Shown here: positions 1-4,752 of the stretch, piece by piece | Numbering within the stretch: position 1 is the first letter of the stretch | How the letters are laid out: every line of letters starts with the position of its first letter | Source of the DNA: a virus | Taxonomy: Duplodnaviria; Heunggongvirae; Uroviricota; Caudoviricetes | Strand: one strand, 5' to 3' | Virus record (IMG/VR): IMGVR_UViG_2579778921_000002 | Length of the DNA: 4,752 bases | Notes under the pieces: generated by a model | The model's input: only the letters and a program-made list of their open reading frames with translations | Told to the model about the DNA's origin: nothing | Databases searched by the model: none | Position numbers and translations under genes: made by a program

Positions 1-573
1 TTCTGGCATGTTTGCCGCAGGTCTGATCTTGTATATTGCAGTCAAACCAGACGTACATCTTGACCATATTCTTTTCGGCGACATGCTCGGGGTAACCATC
101 GGCGATATAATCCAGACGGTGATTATTGCCGGGCTGGTTACACTTGTTATTAGCGTAAAATGGCGGGATTTTTTGCTGTTCAGCTTTGATTATCAACAGG
201 CGCAGGCAAGCGGTTTGTAAGCGGTTTGCATACGAGATGTCTGCATTATGGGCTGCTGTGCATGGTCTCTCTGACCATTGTGGCGACGCTGAAAGCGGTA
301 GGTATCATTCTCTCCATTTCTCTGCTCATTGCGCCTGGCGCCATTGCGGTACTCCTGACACAACGCTTTCATATTGCGCTCCTACTGGCGATTGGCATAT
401 CGGTAATAGTGTCAATGACTGGTGTCTGGTTGTCCTTTTTTATCGACAGTGCACCAGCTCCGACGATTGTCGTCTTATTCGCGGTTGTGTTCATCATGAC
501 GTTCACCGTTACCAGCATCAACGCACGCACAAAGGGAAACACCCATACACAGGATTTGTCATCACCCAATTAG
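1..573 (+). pseudogene. sitD: 3' portion of an ABC-3 family metal (Mn/Fe-type) ABC transporter permease gene, SitD/YfeD/MntB-like, continuing upstream of the window. The reading frame is interrupted by an 11-bp insertion at 218-228: the upstream part is in frame 2 (2..220, ending at TAA 218-220) and the downstream part in frame 1 (229..573).
   Basis: The frame-2 translation (…LFGDMLGVTIGDIIQTVIIAGLVTLVISV…FDYQQAQASGL) and frame-1 translation (HTRCLHYGLLCMVSLTIVATLKAVGIILSISLLIAPGAIAVLLTQRF…) are both strongly hydrophobic, multi-helix and typical of ABC-3 permease C-terminal halves. Removing nt 218-228 joins them into one continuous protein. The symbol is a best guess from family resemblance and context, not a confirmed identity. 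Confidence 0.6.
208..228 (+). repeat. Imperfect tandem duplication: aagcggtttg (208-217), T (218), aagcggtttg (219-228). It is the cause of the frameshift and premature stop in the permease gene.
   Basis: Direct reading of the sequence; T218 with A219-A220 forms TAA in the upstream reading frame. Confidence 0.85.
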
Positions 574-771: not shown

Positions 772-924
772 CATAATCCCAATGATTACTCCCTGACAGG
801 GTTCGTAGGCCACTCAATATCAGGTGCAGTTGATGTATCAACACGGTTCAGCAGCATCCGATACTTTTTCCAGGCTTCCAGCAACGGGGTTTCTTCCTCC
901 GTTGCATATACAGCTCACCTTTTT

Positions 925-1218
925 TCACCCACGATTAACCAACAGCCAGACCAGCAGACACGCCACCACCGGCACAGCAAAATCCATCAGGCTTGCCACA
1001 TCCCATGCACGTGTATCAAAACCGCCCCACCACGGCATATTCATTCGCTTGCCATGCCCGAACATTTCGATCCAGCGATATTCTGCCTGGGTGTGTTCAC
1101 GCGCAATGAAGAACGTACAACCGGCTATCGCCCCGTAAGCCCAGTTCCCGGTAAAAAGACCAATCAGTAGCTGCGCAGCCACAGCACAAAGCGCATGAAG
1201 GAAAGGTGTTATATCCAT
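925..1218 (-). CDS. Hypothetical small membrane protein of 97 aa with two hydrophobic segments (N-terminal ALCAVAAQLLIGLF and C-terminal FAVPVVACLLVWLLV). Possibly a prophage cargo (moron) gene.
   Basis: ATG at 1216-1218 is preceded on the minus strand by a strong Shine-Dalgarno, GAAGGAGGAG (plus-strand 1221-1230), at good spacing. The ORF is uninterrupted and the hydrophobic segments are flanked by charged residues. The overlapping plus-strand ORFs have implausible composition. Confidence 0.6.
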   Translation of the reverse strand: MDITPFLHALCAVAAQLLIGLFTGNWAYGAIAGCTFFIAREHTQAEYRWIEMFGHGKRMNMPWWGGFDTRAWDVASLMDFAVPVVACLLVWLLVNRG

Positions 1219-1239
1219 TACTCCTCCTTCATCCTACCC

Positions 1240-1262
1240 AATAAAACGGGGCGCTCGGCCCC
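1240..1262 (-). terminator. Putative Rho-independent terminator for the minus-strand tail-fibre operon. On the minus strand it reads GGGGC-CGAGC-GCCCC followed by GTTTTATT.
   Basis: 5-bp all-GC stem at plus 1248-1252 and 1258-1262 with a 5-nt loop and a U-rich tract, located 7 nt downstream of the orf346 stop (1269-1271). Confidence 0.5.
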
Positions 1263-1268
1263 TTAATA

Positions 1269-2309
1269 TTATTTAGACGCAAGCGCCGCCTCAATTACAG
1301 ATAATCTTTGTCTTAATTCTGCGTTTTCTTCTTCCAGTGCTGTTATTCTGTCGTCTGACTCTCTGGCTACCTGAACAAGCAAGCCAGTAACACCAGAATA
1401 ATCTACTGTGTAATAACGTTCACCTTCTTCACCTTCCGATCCGCTCGCACCGTCCTGATATTTCATTGCGGAACCTACAACTTCTGGGATTGCTTCCAGA
1501 GCTTCCTGTGCAATGACACCAGCATAGGGCATACCGTTTTCTTTAAGCGTGTATGTATAGCCGTTCATTTTACGGATGCGGTCGGTTGCATTATCGATCA
1601 CCTGAATGTTGTCTTTCAGATCCCGGTCGGAATGCTGGTTAAATGCGGTGGCATGACATGCACCATTAACGCTTAACATATAGGTGTTATCGGTATTTTT
1701 CTGCGCATAGAACATATAAGCGCCACCATCAACACCGACTTCATAAACAACAGGACGGCTGGAATTTCCCCATAATAACGTCGACACACCAGAATACGCC
1801 GTACCTTGCGTGTTTAGTGTCATGGTCGACCCGTGATTAGCATATTTGATCTGCAATGAGTCTGTATTATCAAACTTAATAAGCGCGTTACTTCCCCGCA
1901 CACCATACGACATGAGACAGTTCCCCATCTTAAGGTAACCATCACTGCCTGGAAAAATTAAAGTTCCTCCGTAAAGATCACTAAAGTCCCAAAAGATACC
2001 TTTTGTCCCGTTATGTGTGACGATCCTCGTCATTGTATCTTTAGTACCATCAATATTTTTTCTGGTATATATGTCACTATAAGCGTTTTCCGTTTCACCA
2101 GTCTTATTTGACAAATGCAGCTTACCGCTGAATATAGTTCCAGTTGTTGGCAATGTTTTTTGATCATAGATTACATTGCAATAACCATTCCATGTTGTTT
2201 TATTGTCTACATAAGATTTTGTTGCGTAGCTTCCTTGATCGTTTTTTAATTTGCTAACGTCGGATTTTAGCGTTTTGATGTCATCAGGAATTACTGTCGA
2301 TGTAGCCAT
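1269..2309 (-). CDS. Phage tail fibre / receptor-binding-type protein of 346 aa. The N-terminal ~226 aa is a Gly/Thr/Asn/Tyr-rich, probably beta-rich domain. The C-terminal ~120 aa resembles the intramolecular chaperone auto-processing domain (Peptidase S74-like) of phage fibres and tailspikes.
   Basis: The C-terminal segment begins HSDRDLKDNIQVIDNATDRIRKMNGYTYTLKENGMPYAGVIAQEALEAIPEVV and ends in a predicted coiled coil (RITALEEENAELRQRLSVIEAALASK), matching the S-D-x-R-x-K-x-N-I signature of intramolecular chaperone domains. A GAGGAAG Shine-Dalgarno overlaps the stop of the upstream 93-aa ORF. Confidence 0.8.
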   Translation of the reverse strand: MATSTVIPDDIKTLKSDVSKLKNDQGSYATKSYVDNKTTWNGYCNVIYDQKTLPTTGTIFSGKLHLSNKTGETENAYSDIYTRKNIDGTKDTMTRIVTHNGTKGIFWDFSDLYGGTLIFPGSDGYLKMGNCLMSYGVRGSNALIKFDNTDSLQIKYANHGSTMTLNTQGTAYSGVSTLLWGNSSRPVVYEVGVDGGAYMFYAQKNTDNTYMLSVNGACHATAFNQHSDRDLKDNIQVIDNATDRIRKMNGYTYTLKENGMPYAGVIAQEALEAIPEVVGSAMKYQDGASGSEGEEGERYYTVDYSGVTGLLVQVARESDDRITALEEENAELRQRLSVIEAALASK

Positions 2310-2318
2310 TTTTCTTCC

Positions 2319-2600
2319 TCACATCCAGCCACGAAGTTGATGCTCAACAGCAACCACGTATTCATCGAATAATGACGATATTTGCGAATCATTAATGATG
2401 CGCACGTTTACAAAATATCCGTCTTCCTTAACACATACCGGTTCGCCATCTTCAGTCAGTTCTCCGGTTTCTTTGTACACGTTACCTATCACGTCGATAA
2501 GAATATCATCCTGCATCGACTCGTCATCATAATAGCCAATACTCTCCATAAAGGCCGAAAAGTCGGCCCTGTCTTCAAATTTGAGTGTTAAATCTTTCAT
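2319..2600 (-). CDS. Hypothetical small, highly acidic protein of 93 aa (22 Asp+Glu against 7 Lys+Arg by direct count). Translationally coupled to stf; possibly a fibre assembly or adaptor factor, or an acidic anti-defence-type protein.
   Basis: Its ATG (2598-2600) overlaps the stf stop (2600-2602) as TAATG on the minus strand. The ORF is uninterrupted with coding-like composition. No family was recognised from memory. Confidence 0.7.
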   Translation of the reverse strand: MKDLTLKFEDRADFSAFMESIGYYDDESMQDDILIDVIGNVYKETGELTEDGEPVCVKEDGYFVNVRIINDSQISSLFDEYVVAVEHQLRGWM

Positions 2601-4752
2601 TAGATTGACTCCCCCACCTGAGCATCAGTCAATGCCTTGTGCCATATTCTGAAATTCCTGACATGACCAAATAAATGACGTAACCCGGCTGTAGTCTGGC
2701 CTCCAATACGGATAATTGCGGTGTTCTGAATACAGGACCATGTGGTTTTTGTTTCGCTGGATATATGCCCGTTACTTACTGAGCACGTAGACTGCTCTGA
2801 CTTTACACGCATCCCCATAACCATTTTTTCAAGCGATGCGTTTTCGTTTACCCGTCTGTTAGCCAAACCTATATCACAATAAGGAAATCCGTCGTAATCT
2901 GTTCCTCCAATATCGCAATAAGGAAATCCGTCGTAATCTGTTGAACGACCGAAGCCAAGAATAATAGCCGCTCCGGTTTGATGACCGCCGGTATCAAAAA
3001 CACGTGGCGCTGCATTTGGCGTTTTATACCAGTTCTTATGTACCTCACAAAGAACCGTAAAAGGAAGATTATAAAGATTATTCTTAATTGGAACTGTAAC
3101 TATATCGCTTGCGCGGGTCGCCGCCGTCGCTCCTGATATAATAAAAGATGATACACAAGGCCCATCTTCTACTTGTGGGGTGGCCAGATAAATATAGTCA
3201 CCAGATACGGTTGCCCCGCTCTGCTTAGGAGAATACTGTATCTGAGAGCCTATTTTTAACTCCCCATCAATTGCCTGAATTGTTGCCTCTGCAAAAATCC
3301 ATCCGGTAGCTTCGTCCTTTCTGACTCTCGCTGTAATCCTTGAGGCAGCACCGCCTGTCATATTAATTTCAAGCGTTTGTGTATCAATATACGCATCACC
3401 AAGAAAAGTTGTTGCGCTACCGTCATATTTATCAAACCGGATACGCAACCTTACCTGCAGTTCTGTTTTAAAACGACATGAGGTTGTCACGTGTTTATTA
3501 TCGCCTGAGACATCAACTGACTTTGTTGCAGCAATTGATGCCATATTAATGGCTGAGGTTTGCCCAATCAGAGAATCGTTGCAGACAAACTTTCCATAGG
3601 TAAAACCAAAATTATCCGTCCCTGTTTCGGGCACATCCATATTTGACGATCGCCCCCAACTGGCAGGGCTTTCCGAATTGAGCATGTAGTTTGTTCTTTG
3701 CCCCTCAATAAGCAGGCCATCACGTTCAAATCGTGGCTCGTCAATGGCAGCCTCTGTCAGCACACCAGATTTGTTAATATAGGTTGCTTTCGATGCACGT
3801 TTAAACTTAACAATCTTGTCGCCAGGCATCGTTATTTCATCGTCACCAATAACAATTTTTTTATATGACGGCGAAAAGCCCGTAATCATATCCAGCGAAT
3901 CGTTAAATGGTATCCACACATCAGGCAGCGGCTGTAAGACATATTTATACGGCTCCGCAGCCTGGCTTGCGTACTCTCTGGCTGCATCTTCGCTTGCTTT
4001 AGCTGCCGTCTGGCTTGCTGCCGATGCTTTCGCTGAGTTCGCAGCCGCTGTTTCGCTCACCTTTGCGTTGGTTTCACTGGTTTTTGCTGCTTTTTGACTG
4101 TTAGCTGATGCAGTGGCAGAAGCAGCCGCCGCGCTTGCAGAACTGGCTGCGGCACTCTCGCTTTGAGCCGCTGCATCCTGACTGCTTTTCGCCGCAGTTT
4201 CACTGGCTTTGGCATTCGTTTCGCTGGTCTTCGCTGCCGTCTGGCTGGACTTTGCGTTAGTTTCACTCGTCTTCGCAGCTTTCTGGCTGTTAGCCGCAGC
4301 AGTTGCTGATCCAGCTGCTGAAGTCGCAGAACCGGCTGCCGCGCTCTCGCTTTGGGCTGCTGCAACCTGGCTGTTTTTTGCCGCAGTTTCACTGGCTTTA
4401 GCATTCGTTTCGCTGGTTTTCGCTGCCGTCTGGCTGGACTTTGCGTTGGTTTCGCTCGTCTTTGCGGCTGTCTCACTGTTTTTCGCGTTGGTTTCTGATT
4501 TTTTGGCTGCTGTCGCGGAGTTTGCCGATGCAGTCTGTGAGGTCGCTGCCGCCTGTGCGCTGTTAGCTGCATTCGTTTCTGAGGTTTTCGCCGCGTTCTT
4601 CGATGATGCCGCTGCAGTTTCGGATTTCTTTGCCGCCGCTGCGCTCTGAGAGGCGGCTTCAGCGTTGCGTGCCGCTTCTTCCACCATTTCCTCAAAACGA
4701 CGCAATGCCTCCGGCATGACATCATCTTCCGTCATGGCACCGAGAAAATCAT
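2600..4752 (-). CDS. stf: Lambda Stf-type side tail fibre protein, 5'-partial (the N-terminus lies beyond the window end). It has a conserved Stf segment, an Ala/Ser/Thr-rich heptad-repeat shaft, and a divergent C-terminal region of about 450 aa ending in a concanavalin A-like (LamG-type) lectin-like domain.
   Basis: The frame stays open to the window edge (…DFLGA-MTEDDVMPEALRRFEEMVEEAARNA), which matches the lambda Stf segment …DFLCAMTEDD…LRR…MVEE…ARNA as recalled from memory. It is followed by about 235 aa of KTSETNA-type repeats. The C-terminus, LRHLFGHVRNFRIWHKALTDAQV, resembles the terminal strand motif of LamG/ConA-like domains. Confidence 0.9.
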   Translation of the reverse strand, partial: DFLGAMTEDDVMPEALRRFEEMVEEAARNAEAASQSAAAAKKSETAAASSKNAAKTSETNAANSAQAAATSQTASANSATAAKKSETNAKNSETAAKTSETNAKSSQTAAKTSETNAKASETAAKNSQVAAAQSESAAAGSATSAAGSATAAANSQKAAKTSETNAKSSQTAAKTSETNAKASETAAKSSQDAAAQSESAAASSASAAAASATASANSQKAAKTSETNAKVSETAAANSAKASAASQTAAKASEDAAREYASQAAEPYKYVLQPLPDVWIPFNDSLDMITGFSPSYKKIVIGDDEITMPGDKIVKFKRASKATYINKSGVLTEAAIDEPRFERDGLLIEGQRTNYMLNSESPASWGRSSNMDVPETGTDNFGFTYGKFVCNDSLIGQTSAINMASIAATKSVDVSGDNKHVTTSCRFKTELQVRLRIRFDKYDGSATTFLGDAYIDTQTLEINMTGGAASRITARVRKDEATGWIFAEATIQAIDGELKIGSQIQYSPKQSGATVSGDYIYLATPQVEDGPCVSSFIISGATAATRASDIVTVPIKNNLYNLPFTVLCEVHKNWYKTPNAAPRVFDTGGHQTGAAIILGFGRSTDYDGFPYCDIGGTDYDGFPYCDIGLANRRVNENASLEKMVMGMRVKSEQSTCSVSNGHISSETKTTWSCIQNTAIIRIGGQTTAGLRHLFGHVRNFRIWHKALTDAQVGESI
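2867..2948 (-). repeat. In-frame tandem duplication of about 39 bp inside the stf C-terminal domain, encoding (S/G)TDYDGFPYCDIG twice.
   Basis: Plus-strand 2871-2909 and 2910-2948 share 33 consecutive positions with one mismatch (a/g), which is synonymous (TGT/TGC Cys) on the coding strand. Confidence 0.9.
3956..4663 (-). repeat. Ala/Ser/Thr-rich repeat region of stf with 21-bp (7-aa) periodicity. It contains a higher-order 189-bp (63-aa) tandem duplication (two full units at about 4097..4474, plus a partial third toward 4040).
   Basis: The anchor gccgcagtttcactggcttt occurs at 4191 and 4380 (period 189 bp) with about 85-90% identity over the surrounding unit. The protein shows KAAKTSETNAKSSQTAAKTSETNAKASETAAK(N/S)SQ… twice. 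Confidence 0.85.

What the first reader, a model, noticed from the sequence alone, without database searches (positions are those of the whole stretch)
1269..2309. Second fibre-type gene with a C-terminal intramolecular-chaperone-like domain downstream of an apparently complete Stf: possible two-component (branched) receptor-binding module
The 346-aa product has a short N-terminal region (about 226 aa) followed by an SDRDLKDNI…coiled-coil domain of the type that assists trimer folding and is then auto-cleaved at the conserved Ser in endosialidase-type tailspikes and some tail fibres. Together with the 93-aa ORF it is tightly coupled to stf (TAATG overlap, then a 9-nt gap with an SD overlapping the stop). 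A lambda-type Stf followed by a small acidic protein and an S74-chaperone fibre, instead of a Tfa-type assembly protein, is not the textbook arrangement. By eye this module is also more AT-rich than the stf repeat shaft, which suggests modular acquisition.
Basis: partly seen in the sequence, partly recalled or inferred. Interest (0 to 1): 0.6.

Follow-up and report, generated by a model that had tools for sequence, protein, structure and literature searches.

The report
Second short fibre on prophage side-tail-fibre
The 346-residue gene is a real, common E. coli phage tail-fibre protein with a self-cleaving folding domain, probably docking onto the side tail fibre encoded just upstream; similar multi-part fibres are already described in other coliphages, so it is a solid but ordinary finding.

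Summary
On the minus strand, orf346 (1269-2309) has a Pfam Peptidase_S74 intramolecular-chaperone domain from residue 227 (E 6e-14) with the Ser227/Lys232 dyad. It follows stf and an acidic 93-aa ORF, with the TAATG overlap and 9-nt spacer as described.

Comparative data support a multi-part receptor-binding module:
- The Stf C-terminal domain, which resembles the RcGTA head-spike fibre, plus orf93 travel together through lambdoid, Nonagvirus, Drexlerviridae, Dhillonvirus, T5-like and rV5-like phages.
- In 78 of 78 viral contigs, the gene 9 nt after orf93 starts MATSTVIP.DI.TLK. Its body then comes in swappable types (346 aa or 234 aa), each ending in S74.
- That is the signature of a fibre docking by a conserved N-terminal peptide.
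- Phage 21 and others have stf-orf93 without the third gene, so orf93 serves the Stf head and the S74 fibre is an optional add-on.

The triad is homologous to Gp22/23/24 of T5-like phage IrisVonRoten, already modelled as a proximal fibre with a protruding lectin domain plus a distal chaperone-bearing fibre. Branched LtfA/LtfB fibres are also known.

The orf93-orf346 pair occurs in about 10% of complete E. coli genomes. Here it probably sits in a degraded Rac-like prophage. Verdict: new member of a known kind, modest interest. Docking and cleavage remain untested.

The parts
2600..4752 (-). stf, side tail fibre gene. Its N-terminal ~92 codons are cut off by the window end. It has an Ala/Ser-rich repeat shaft (about 3920-4650) and a C-terminal domain of about 440 aa (2600-3919).
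   Evidence: PF08400 phage_tail_N positions 93-131 match residues 1-39. PHROG 1419 positions 93-793. The C-domain matches NCBIfam NF048003 GTA_spike_fiber at E 2.7e-13 and PDB 6tb9 RcGTA head spike fibre Rcc01080 at E 1e-7. It is 51% identical over 757 aa to IrisVonRoten lateral tail fibre bas32_0022.
2864..2902 (-). Private 39-bp in-frame tandem duplication (13 aa, DYDGFPYCDIG repeated) inside the Stf C-terminal domain.
   Evidence: Alignment to strain 13TMH22. Absent from all other phage Stf homologues aligned and from 5,426 complete E. coli genomes.
2319..2600 (-). orf93: a small acidic protein (10.7 kDa, pI 4.05), translationally coupled to stf through the TAATG overlap. It is an accessory protein of the Stf C-terminal domain.
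2310..2321 (-). orf93 stop codon (TGA), the Shine-Dalgarno overlapping it, and the 9-nt spacer before the orf346 ATG.
   Evidence: Sequence. The same 9-nt spacing occurs in 78 of 78 IMG/VR loci, and also in L092, IrisVonRoten and Baret.
1269..2309 (-). orf346: short tail-fibre protein with a C-terminal S74 intramolecular chaperone. The precursor is 38.0 kDa; the predicted mature part 1-226 is 24.8 kDa.
2205..2309 (-). orf346 residues 1-35: conserved N-terminal docking peptide (MATSTVIPDDIKTLK) plus a short predicted helix.
   Evidence: Conserved while the body is swapped. The recombination breakpoint in E. coli genomes lies about 40 nt into the gene. The motif is shared with IrisVonRoten Gp24 and KarlJaspers bas06_0035. 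It is found in 60 phage records in tail-fibre or S74-type genes, and directly after the orf93 homologue where coordinates were compared. Lowest entropy in the protein.
1980..2219 (-). orf346 residues 31-110: hypervariable beta-rich domain, candidate receptor-contact region, with the lowest GC (0.35).
   Evidence: Entropy profile. Two allelic types (window/JenP1/R11 versus Tritos/ESCO3). pLDDT about 81. GC.
1632..1802 (-). orf346 residues 170-226: fibre shaft/tip motif (LWGNSSRPVVYEV...FYAQKN...VNG) immediately before the cleavage site.
   Evidence: A profile of 32 homologues matches the T4 gp34 C-terminal region (4uxe, 5nxf) at E 4e-8. Moderately variable.
1272..1631 (-). orf346 residues 227-346: S74 intramolecular chaperone domain, with the Ser227/Lys232 dyad, an acidic linker and the C-terminal helix 304-344.
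   Evidence: PF13884 at E 6.3e-14. Profile match to the phage S16 gp37 C-terminus 6f45 at E 2e-7. Nearly invariant S227, D228, R229, D230, L231, K232. Helix.
1241..1262 (-). Intrinsic-terminator-like hairpin (GGGGCCGAGCGCCCC followed by GTTTTATT), 6 nt after the orf346 stop; the likely end of the fibre operon.
   Evidence: Conserved in Tritos, PhiR11_1 and 13TMH22.
925..1218 (-). orf97: small membrane protein that accompanies the 3' end of the fibre module, with or without the S74 fibre.
   Evidence: PHROG 1443, unknown function. 95% identical to the phage 21 putative membrane protein CPT_21_24. Present after the fibre genes in Tritos, PhiR11_1, PhiR49_1, IdasGreatGrand and Lambda_ev110.
786..905 (-). 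3' remnant of a Tfa-type tail fibre assembly gene (...[39 protein letters not shown]).
   Evidence: PGAP annotation in the matching genome. Translation.

Best explanation
orf346 encodes a short homotrimeric tail fibre, the third component of a mobile three-gene receptor-binding module: Stf C-terminal head, orf93 and the S74 fibre.

Proposed mechanism:
1. The C-terminal S74 domain (227-346) acts in cis to nucleate trimer folding of the preceding beta-structured fibre. It then removes itself by Ser227/Lys232-dependent autoproteolysis, leaving a mature subunit of about 25 kDa (residues 1-226).
2. [quoted passage not shown]
3. The Stf's own C-terminal domain resembles the GTA head-spike fibre, which binds capsular polysaccharide in RcGTA. 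It is inferred to project as a glycan-binding head.
4. Each side fibre would then present two different binding elements: the Stf head, and the variable parts of orf346 (residues 31-110 and 171-226). This would broaden or sharpen recognition of surface glycans in the reversible first step of adsorption.
5. orf93 is an accessory protein (folding helper or small structural partner) of the Stf head, not of the S74 fibre.

Shown here: domain identities, gene coupling, co-transfer of the module between phage families, and the conserved anchor with swappable bodies.

Inferred: trimer state, cleavage, the docking site, receptor class and presence in virions.

In this particular genome the module probably lies in a degraded Rac-like prophage. 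There it is a reservoir allele rather than part of a working virion.
For: - S74 domain and dyad.
- Fibre family membership: PHROG 4563 over the full length, and the T4 gp34-type shaft motif at E 4e-8.
- Same four genes in isolated temperate phages Tritos, 2G7b, PhiR63_1, HannyBb and PhiR11_1.
- Stf C-domain, orf93 and the fibre also occur in virulent Nonagvirus JenP1 and ESCO3.
- In 78 of 78 IMG/VR loci the gene 9 nt after orf93 begins MATSTVIP[DGE]DI[KT]TLK. The bodies fall into a 346-aa type (42 loci) and an unrelated 234-aa type (27 loci), and both carry S74.
- Of the 1,076 E. coli genomes with any match, 515 cover at least 80% of the query. In the sampled partial matches, homology stops about 40 nt into the fibre gene.
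- The anchor motif is shared with IrisVonRoten Gp24 (MVTKTVIPTDITKLK). Its neighbours bas32_0022 and bas32_0023 are homologues of Stf (51% identity) and orf93 (39%).
- Humolli et al. (bioRxiv 10.1101/2024.09.12.612763) model Gp24 as a fibre attached to proximal fibre Gp22, whose galectin-like C-domain protrudes as a possible extra receptor-binding domain.
- The Stf C-domain matches the RcGTA head spike fibre, which binds capsular polysaccharide (PMC10218006).
- orf93 stays with the Stf head when no third fibre is present: phage 21, Lambda_ev110, L089, L090/91, L095.
- Variability is concentrated in residues 31-110 and 171-226.
Against: - There is no direct evidence of contact between orf346 and Stf or orf93. 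Multimer modelling was not available, and the monomer model of orf346 is poor (pLDDT 62) with no significant fold hits.
- The published IrisVonRoten assembly is itself an AlphaFold-Multimer prediction, not an experimental structure.
- Divergence of the anchor peptide does not track orf93 divergence closely. PhiR11_1 has a much more divergent orf93 but a 92%-identical anchor, so the partner is not identified.
- A distant triad (L092) has a different N-terminus, MTLRQDTIKLG.
- BASEL annotators labelled the 226-aa homologue 'putative lateral tail fiber chaperone'.
- In the otherwise identical genome the prophage lacks head genes and most tail genes.
- The window's Stf head carries a private 13-aa duplication of unknown effect.
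Confidence: 0.6

Rival explanations
1. orf346 is an independent short fibre that attaches directly to the tail tip or baseplate (for example to J or another tip protein) rather than to Stf. The three genes are merely co-inherited host-range cargo.
For: Phage 21, Lambda_ev110 and several distant loci do without the third gene, so it is separable. Anchor divergence does not follow orf93 divergence.
Against: The same anchor peptide occurs in phages with unrelated tail tips: lambdoid, Nonagvirus, Drexlerviridae and T5-like. The only shared neighbours in those phages are the Stf C-domain and orf93. In every locus examined the gene sits directly after orf93, with a 9-nt spacer in most.
Confidence: 0.12
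2. orf346, and especially its 234-aa relatives, is not a virion fibre. It is a trans-acting assembly chaperone for the Stf head, replacing Tfa, and is discarded after assembly.
For: It takes the genomic place of Tfa. BASEL annotation calls the 226-aa homologue 'putative lateral tail fiber chaperone'. The mature part of the 234-aa type is only about 115 residues.
Against: S74 domains are known (established knowledge; endoNF, T5 pb1) to act in cis on the polypeptide N-terminal to them. Stf plus orf93 exist without this gene in phage 21 and others, so Stf does not need it. The mature part is mosaic and hypervariable, like a receptor-binding protein. It also contains a T4 gp34-type fibre motif.
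Confidence: 0.1
3. In this genome the gene is inert cargo of a decaying cryptic prophage. It has no current function beyond serving as a recombination donor for incoming phages.
For: The otherwise identical strain 13TMH22 has a truncated J, no head genes, and trkG and pseudogenes in the prophage. The window shows private lesions: a sitD frameshift and an stf duplication. Lambda acquires stf-region DNA from defective Rac and Qin prophages (PMC3945230).
Against: orf93, orf346 and orf97 are intact and 100% identical to those of 13TMH22. orf346 is 95% identical to its closest homologue cluster. This rival concerns the local copy only and is compatible with the best explanation for the family.
Confidence: 0.55

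Closest known systems
Lateral tail fibre module Gp22-Gp23-Gp24 of T5-like phage IrisVonRoten (Bas32), described in Humolli et al., bioRxiv 10.1101/2024.09.12.612763
   Same: Same three-gene order and coupling, with the same 9-nt spacer. The proximal fibre is homologous in shaft and C-terminal lectin-like domain (51% over 757 aa). The small middle protein is homologous (39%). The distal fibre shares the N-terminal MxTxTxIPxDIxxLK peptide and a C-terminal S74 domain.
   Different: Gp24 is 574 aa and is described as T-shaped, with a Gp12-like and a T5-like receptor-binding domain. orf346 is 346 aa, and outside the anchor and chaperone there is no significant similarity. The host phage is virulent and T5-like, attached through LtfC, whereas here the fibre has the lambda-type Stf N-terminus. 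That assembly is an AlphaFold-Multimer prediction.
Branched LtfA/LtfB lateral tail fibres of T5-like phages DT57C and DT571/2 (Golomidova et al. 2016, PMC4728585; Ayala et al. 2023, PMC10713586)
   Same: Two adjacent fibre genes. The second fibre has no virion-attachment domain of its own and docks through a short N-terminal segment on the first. Both have Pfam PF13884 autocleaving chaperone domains, and the two fibres confer different O-antigen specificities.
   Different: In DT57C both fibres carry S74 and no small gene lies between them (gp108 and gp107 are adjacent). Here only the second fibre has S74, the first ends in a GTA-spike-like head, and an extra 93-aa protein intervenes. Per Golomidova et al., the LtfB anchor is related to phiEco32 gp15; it was not compared here with MATSTVIP.
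Lambda Stf/Tfa side tail fibre system
   Same: Stf N-terminal domain (PF08400) and position downstream of J and lom. Role in reversible primary adsorption (established knowledge).
   Different: The C-terminal receptor-binding part is unrelated, being GTA-spike-like instead of the T4 gp37-like tip. There is no Tfa/Caudo_TAP chaperone, only a 39-codon remnant. A second fibre gene is present.
C-terminal intramolecular chaperone (peptidase S74) of endosialidase K1F, T5 pb1 and phage S16 gp37
   Same: PF13884 match, Ser-x4-Lys dyad, C-terminal position and terminal helix.
   Different: There is no sialidase or other enzymatic domain upstream, so 'endosialidase' annotations in JenP1 and ESCO3 refer only to the chaperone. 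The mature part is unusually short at 226 aa.
RcGTA head spike fibre Rcc01080 (PDB 6tb9)
   Same: Stf residues about 311-557 align with Rcc01080 residues 45-286 at E 1e-7, and NCBIfam NF048003 matches. In RcGTA this is a polysaccharide-binding role (PMC10218006).
   Different: Here the domain is mounted at the end of a long tail fibre, not on the capsid. It is followed by a further LamG-like C-terminal segment and accompanied by orf93.

Membership tests
Peptidase S74 / C-terminal intramolecular chaperone domain | Significant match to the family HMM (PF13884) above the curated threshold | tested here: met
   52.4 bits against a cut-off of 22, E 6.3e-14, residues 227-278 covering profile positions 1-57 of 58.
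Peptidase S74 / C-terminal intramolecular chaperone domain | Catalytic Ser and Lys five residues apart at the start of the domain (Ser911/Lys916 in endoNF, from established knowledge) | tested here: met
   S227-D-R-D-L-K232. All six positions are nearly invariant (at least 90%) in 32 homologues and are aligned with SSDRRIKKDI of phage S16 gp37.
Peptidase S74 / C-terminal intramolecular chaperone domain | Located at the C-terminus of a trimeric fibre or spike and ending in helices that form a trimeric coiled coil | tested here: inconclusive
   The C-terminal position and a confident 40-residue terminal helix are seen, and a fibre shaft motif precedes the domain. The trimeric state could not be modelled.
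Peptidase S74 / C-terminal intramolecular chaperone domain | Autoproteolytic release of the domain after folding | not testable with these tools
   Needs SDS-PAGE or mass spectrometry of expressed protein or virions, and an S227A mutant.
Multi-protein (branched or jointed) lateral tail fibres of siphoviruses (DT57C LtfA/LtfB; IrisVonRoten Gp22-24) | Two fibre genes adjacent and co-oriented in the tail operon | tested here: met
   stf, orf93 and orf346 are translationally coupled, with a terminator only after orf346.
Multi-protein (branched or jointed) lateral tail fibres of siphoviruses (DT57C LtfA/LtfB; IrisVonRoten Gp22-24) | The second fibre has a short conserved N-terminal anchor while the rest is variable or exchangeable | tested here: met
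   78 of 78 loci share the anchor and carry two unrelated body types. The breakpoint lies about 40 nt into the gene. Entropy profile.
Multi-protein (branched or jointed) lateral tail fibres of siphoviruses (DT57C LtfA/LtfB; IrisVonRoten Gp22-24) | Sequence homology of all three components to the IrisVonRoten module | tested here: met
   Stf versus bas32_0022: 51% identity, E 0. orf93 versus bas32_0023: 39%, E 1e-16. orf346 versus bas32_0024: anchor 10 of 17 identical and S74 region 30% identical at E 2e-6, with the middle not homologous.
Multi-protein (branched or jointed) lateral tail fibres of siphoviruses (DT57C LtfA/LtfB; IrisVonRoten Gp22-24) | Physical attachment of the second fibre to the first, and dependence of its incorporation on the first | not testable with these tools
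   No multimer prediction was available. Needs pull-down, cryo-EM or virion proteomics of stf mutants.
Lambda-type Stf/Tfa side tail fibre | Stf N-terminal attachment domain (PF08400) | tested here: met
   Profile positions 93-131 of 134 match the first 39 residues in the window, and the rest lies beyond the window edge. Full-length homologues carry the complete domain.
Lambda-type Stf/Tfa side tail fibre | Tfa (Caudo_TAP) assembly chaperone encoded immediately downstream of stf | tested here: not met
   orf93 has no Pfam, NCBIfam or structural similarity to Tfa. Only a 39-codon tfa remnant lies at 786-905.
Endosialidase tailspike | Catalytic sialidase beta-propeller N-terminal to the chaperone | tested here: not met
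   No domain other than S74 was detected in 1-226. The mature part is too short, and no fold match was found.

The most novel reading that the evidence does not exclude
orf93 would be a previously unrecognised class of fibre-joint protein. It is a small acidic alpha/beta subunit with no relatives of known function. In this reading it caps the GTA-spike-like head of the proximal fibre and creates the socket for the MxTxTxIPxDIxxLK peptide. Any S74 fibre carrying that 15-residue tag could then be plugged onto side fibres of lambdoid, T1-like, 9g-like and T5-like phages alike, giving a universal, portable plug-and-socket system for adding a second receptor specificity.
Probability: 0.2. Interest if true: 0.55.

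Novelty: new member of a known kind. Interest (0 to 1): 0.3.

Why it matters
Side and lateral tail fibres decide which O-antigen or capsule types a coliphage can approach. They are also the parts most often re-engineered for phage therapy and for lambda-based DNA delivery.

This work shows that a widespread lambdoid prophage module is homologous to the multi-part fibres of T5-like and small virulent siphoviruses. It also shows that the third component carries a 15-residue conserved tag followed by exchangeable receptor-binding bodies. Together these give a concrete design rule for swapping specificities, and they point to an uncharacterised 93-aa partner that would have to be co-transferred with the Stf head.

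The result also corrects misleading annotations: 'endosialidase', 'chaperone' and 'hypothetical'. It does not reveal a new principle, because branched and jointed fibres with autocleaving chaperones are already established.

Tried and rejected
- AF2 monomer model of orf346 with a 32-sequence alignment gave mean pLDDT 62. Foldseek against the PDB gave no hit below E 0.25, so no fold-based claim is made for residues 1-226.
- Single-sequence search against the PDB gave only a marginal S16 gp37 hit. The profile search was needed.
- NCBIfam had nothing for orf346, orf93 or orf97.
- The hypothesis that orf93 is a dedicated adaptor for the S74 fibre was rejected as the primary reading. Six contexts keep orf93 without any S74 fibre.
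- The idea that the GC drop marks the stf/orf93 junction was rejected. The break is inside stf, at the shaft/C-domain boundary.
- The idea that sitD marks the host flank was rejected. Phage 21 and Lambda_ev110 carry sitABCD as cargo next to orf97.
- Literature searches for Tritos, 2G7b, PhiR63_1 and HannyBb found no paper on these phages.
Full report
**What is in the window**

All the phage genes lie on the minus strand.
- The stf frame runs from the window edge to 2600.
- orf93 occupies 2319-2600.
- orf346 occupies 1269-2309.
- A GC-rich hairpin with a T-run sits at 1241-1262.
- A 97-aa membrane-protein gene, orf97, occupies 925-1218.
- A 39-codon 3' remnant of a Tfa gene lies at 786-905.
- On the plus strand, 1-573 is the 3' part of sitD, broken by a frameshift.

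The stf stop and orf93 start overlap as TAATG. The orf93 stop is followed by a 9-nt spacer before the orf346 ATG, with a GAGGA Shine-Dalgarno overlapping the stop codon.

stf is not complete here. Its first 39 residues in the window match positions 93-131 of the Pfam prophage tail fibre N-terminal domain. Full-length homologues have about 790 residues.

**Where it comes from**

The window is identical to E. coli strain 13TMH22 except for three insertions:
- 11 bp in sitD, which causes the frameshift.
- 8 bp upstream of orf97, which creates a GGAGGAGT Shine-Dalgarno also seen in phages PhiR49_1 and IdasGreatGrand.
- A 39-bp in-frame tandem duplication in the stf C-terminal domain.

The sitD and stf insertions occur in none of 5,426 complete E. 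coli genomes.

In 13TMH22 the prophage is a Rac-like remnant. It keeps a lysis cassette, trkG, a truncated J, lom and the fibre genes, but no head genes.

The sit operon is not the host flank. Phage 21 and Lambda_ev110 carry stf-orf93-orf97-sitDCBA inside their genomes.

Yes. The evidence is as follows.
- Pfam Peptidase_S74 matches residues 227-278 at E 6.3e-14.
- The S227-DRDL-K232 motif is nearly invariant in 32 homologues.
- The C-terminal 40 residues are a confidently predicted helix.
- A profile of the family matches the chaperone-bearing C-terminus of phage S16 gp37 at E 2e-7.
- Just upstream, residues about 170-226 match a shaft motif of the T4 proximal long tail fibre gp34 at E 4e-8.
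- The whole protein matches PHROG 4563, 'tail fiber protein', end to end.
- No enzymatic domain is present, so the 'endosialidase' labels in some phage records refer only to the chaperone.
- The predicted mature product is 24.8 kDa and the released domain 13.2 kDa.

**The module and its mobility**

The same four genes are present in the isolated temperate phages Tritos, 2G7b, PhiR63_1, HannyBb and PhiR11_1.

The Stf C-terminal domain (from QPLPDVWIP onward), orf93 and the S74 fibre are shared with virulent Nonagvirus phages JenP1 and ESCO3, on a different shaft.

The GC break lies at that same boundary inside stf: shaft 0.56, then C-domain 0.44, orf93 0.415 and orf346 0.417. The mobile unit is therefore 'Stf head + orf93 + short fibre', not 'orf93 + short fibre'.

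The Stf head matches NCBIfam GTA_spike_fiber at E 2.7e-13. It also matches the solved RcGTA head spike fibre Rcc01080 at E 1e-7. That protein binds capsular polysaccharide (PMC10218006).

The head occurs in 219 phage records spanning lambdoids, Drexlerviridae, Dhillonvirus, Nonagvirus, T5-like and rV5-like phages.

**Evidence for docking through the N-terminus**

- Of 80 IMG/VR loci with orf93, 78 have DNA downstream. In all 78, an ORF starts exactly 9 nt after orf93 with MATSTVIP[DGE]DI[KT]TLK.
- After about 15-30 residues the proteins fall into a 346-aa type (42 loci) and an unrelated 234-aa type (27 loci). Both have S74 domains.
- In complete E. coli genomes, 515 carry orf93 plus orf346. 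A further set, taking the total to 1,076, match only part of the query. In the sampled cases these match only orf93 plus the first ~40 nt of the fibre gene.
- Within the 346-aa type, residues 1-30 are the most conserved. Residues 31-110 are hypervariable with two allelic forms, 111-170 are conserved, 171-226 are moderately variable, and the chaperone is conserved.
- A conserved N-terminal tag with exchangeable distal parts is the pattern described for second fibres that dock on a first fibre. Examples are DT57C LtfB (PMC4728585) and the distal subunits of siphovirus lateral fibres (PMC8594841).

**The role of orf93**

orf93 has no Pfam or NCBIfam family. It has only 51 representative clusters among 1.84 billion proteins, all small stand-alone proteins apart from two weak repeat-type hits in very large proteins.

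Its genomic partner is the Stf head. Homologues at 27-58% identity always follow such a fibre. In phage 21, Lambda_ev110, L089, L090/91, L095 and rV5_ev146, no S74 fibre follows.

I therefore read orf93 as an accessory of the Stf head, either a folding helper or a small structural partner. I read the S74 fibre as an optional third component inserted between orf93 and orf97.

**Comparison with what is known**

T5-like phage IrisVonRoten has the homologous triad, with the same 9-nt spacer:
- bas32_0022 is 51% identical to Stf over 757 aa.
- bas32_0023 is 39% identical to orf93.
- bas32_0024 begins MVTKTVIPTDITKLK and carries an S74 domain at 464-516.

Humolli et al. (bioRxiv 10.1101/2024.09.12.612763) used AlphaFold-Multimer on this module. 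They describe Gp24 as a T-shaped fibre attached to the proximal fibre Gp22. Its galectin-like C-terminal domain protrudes and may act as an additional receptor-binding domain.

Branched LtfA/LtfB fibres were established genetically in DT57C (PMC4728585) and are consistent with its cryo-EM structure (PMC10713586). The BASEL papers state that lateral fibres of large and small siphoviruses can consist of one, two or more proteins.

The window's module is therefore a lambdoid-prophage member of a known kind. It differs from lambda's Stf/Tfa in three ways:
- the receptor-binding end is different;
- Tfa is absent;
- a second fibre is present.

**What remains uncertain**

Nothing here shows contact between orf346 and Stf or orf93. 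Cleavage and incorporation into virions are also not shown.

Anchor divergence does not track orf93 divergence, so the socket is not identified.

The 234-aa relatives have such a short mature part that a purely chaperone-like role cannot be excluded for them. BASEL annotators chose that label.

The local copy is probably in a non-inducible remnant. There it could matter mainly as a donor for recombination with incoming lambdoid phages, a process demonstrated for the Rac and Qin fibre regions (PMC3945230).

**Verdict**

- Observation: confirmed.
- Interpretation: partly supported. The chaperone domain and the modular, multi-component nature are supported. The branching geometry is untested, and the claim of unusualness is overstated.
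- Novelty: new member of a known kind.
- Interest: about 0.3. The open points are the function of orf93 and the docking site of the tagged fibres.

Noticed in passing
window 206-216: An 11-bp imperfect tandem insertion (GCAAGCGGTTT) frameshifts sitD into two ORFs (8-220 and 226-573). It is absent from all 2,343 complete E. coli genomes that carry this part of sitD.
   Followed up: yes
window 2864-2902: A 39-bp in-frame tandem duplication adds 13 residues (DYDGFPYCDIG repeated) inside the Stf C-terminal lectin-like domain. It is private to this sequence. Together with the sitD lesion, and with no substitutions relative to strain 13TMH22, the pattern of 'only insertions' is odd.
   Followed up: partly
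window 1220-1227: An 8-bp insertion relative to 13TMH22, Tritos and PhiR11_1 creates a strong Shine-Dalgarno (AAGGAGGAGT) in front of orf97. The same allele exists in PhiR49_1 and IdasGreatGrand, so the window combines the terminator of one lineage with the ribosome-binding site of another.
   Followed up: yes
window 925-1218 (-): orf97 is a conserved small membrane protein of unknown function (PHROG 1443; 2-3 predicted transmembrane segments). It always sits at the 3' end of this fibre module, with or without the S74 fibre: phage 21, Lambda_ev110, Tritos, and even next to a fibre remnant in P22-like phage 611R6. It lies behind a terminator and has its own ribosome-binding site, which suggests a moron expressed from the prophage, perhaps for exclusion or envelope modification.
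   Followed up: partly
window 1-573 with L098 (phage 21) and L099 (Lambda_ev110): The sitABCD iron/manganese transporter operon is carried as cargo inside lambdoid phage genomes (phage 21, Lambda_ev110), directly next to the fibre module. The chromosomal sit locus here is therefore probably prophage-borne.
   Followed up: partly
window 786-905 (-): This is a 39-codon remnant of the conserved C-terminus of a Tfa tail-fibre assembly protein. It is a scar showing that a classical stf-tfa cassette was once here and was replaced.
   Followed up: yes
L094 (Logan SRR28248379 contig), 869-8516: A distant orf93 homologue (37% identity) follows a 1,711-aa LamG-type fibre. It is followed by a 314-aa glycine-rich protein without S74, a 53-aa ORF and a 351-aa ORF. 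This may be a different kind of add-on to the same Stf-head/orf93 core.
   Followed up: no
phage records MG065652 and others listed: Records named 'Campylobacter phage' (C11, C12, C13, C15, A12a) and 'Listeria phage LM 4-11-1 / 4-14-1' carry rV5-like or coliphage-like versions of this fibre head and orf93. The naming looks inconsistent with the sequence content and may reflect contamination or mislabelling.
   Followed up: no
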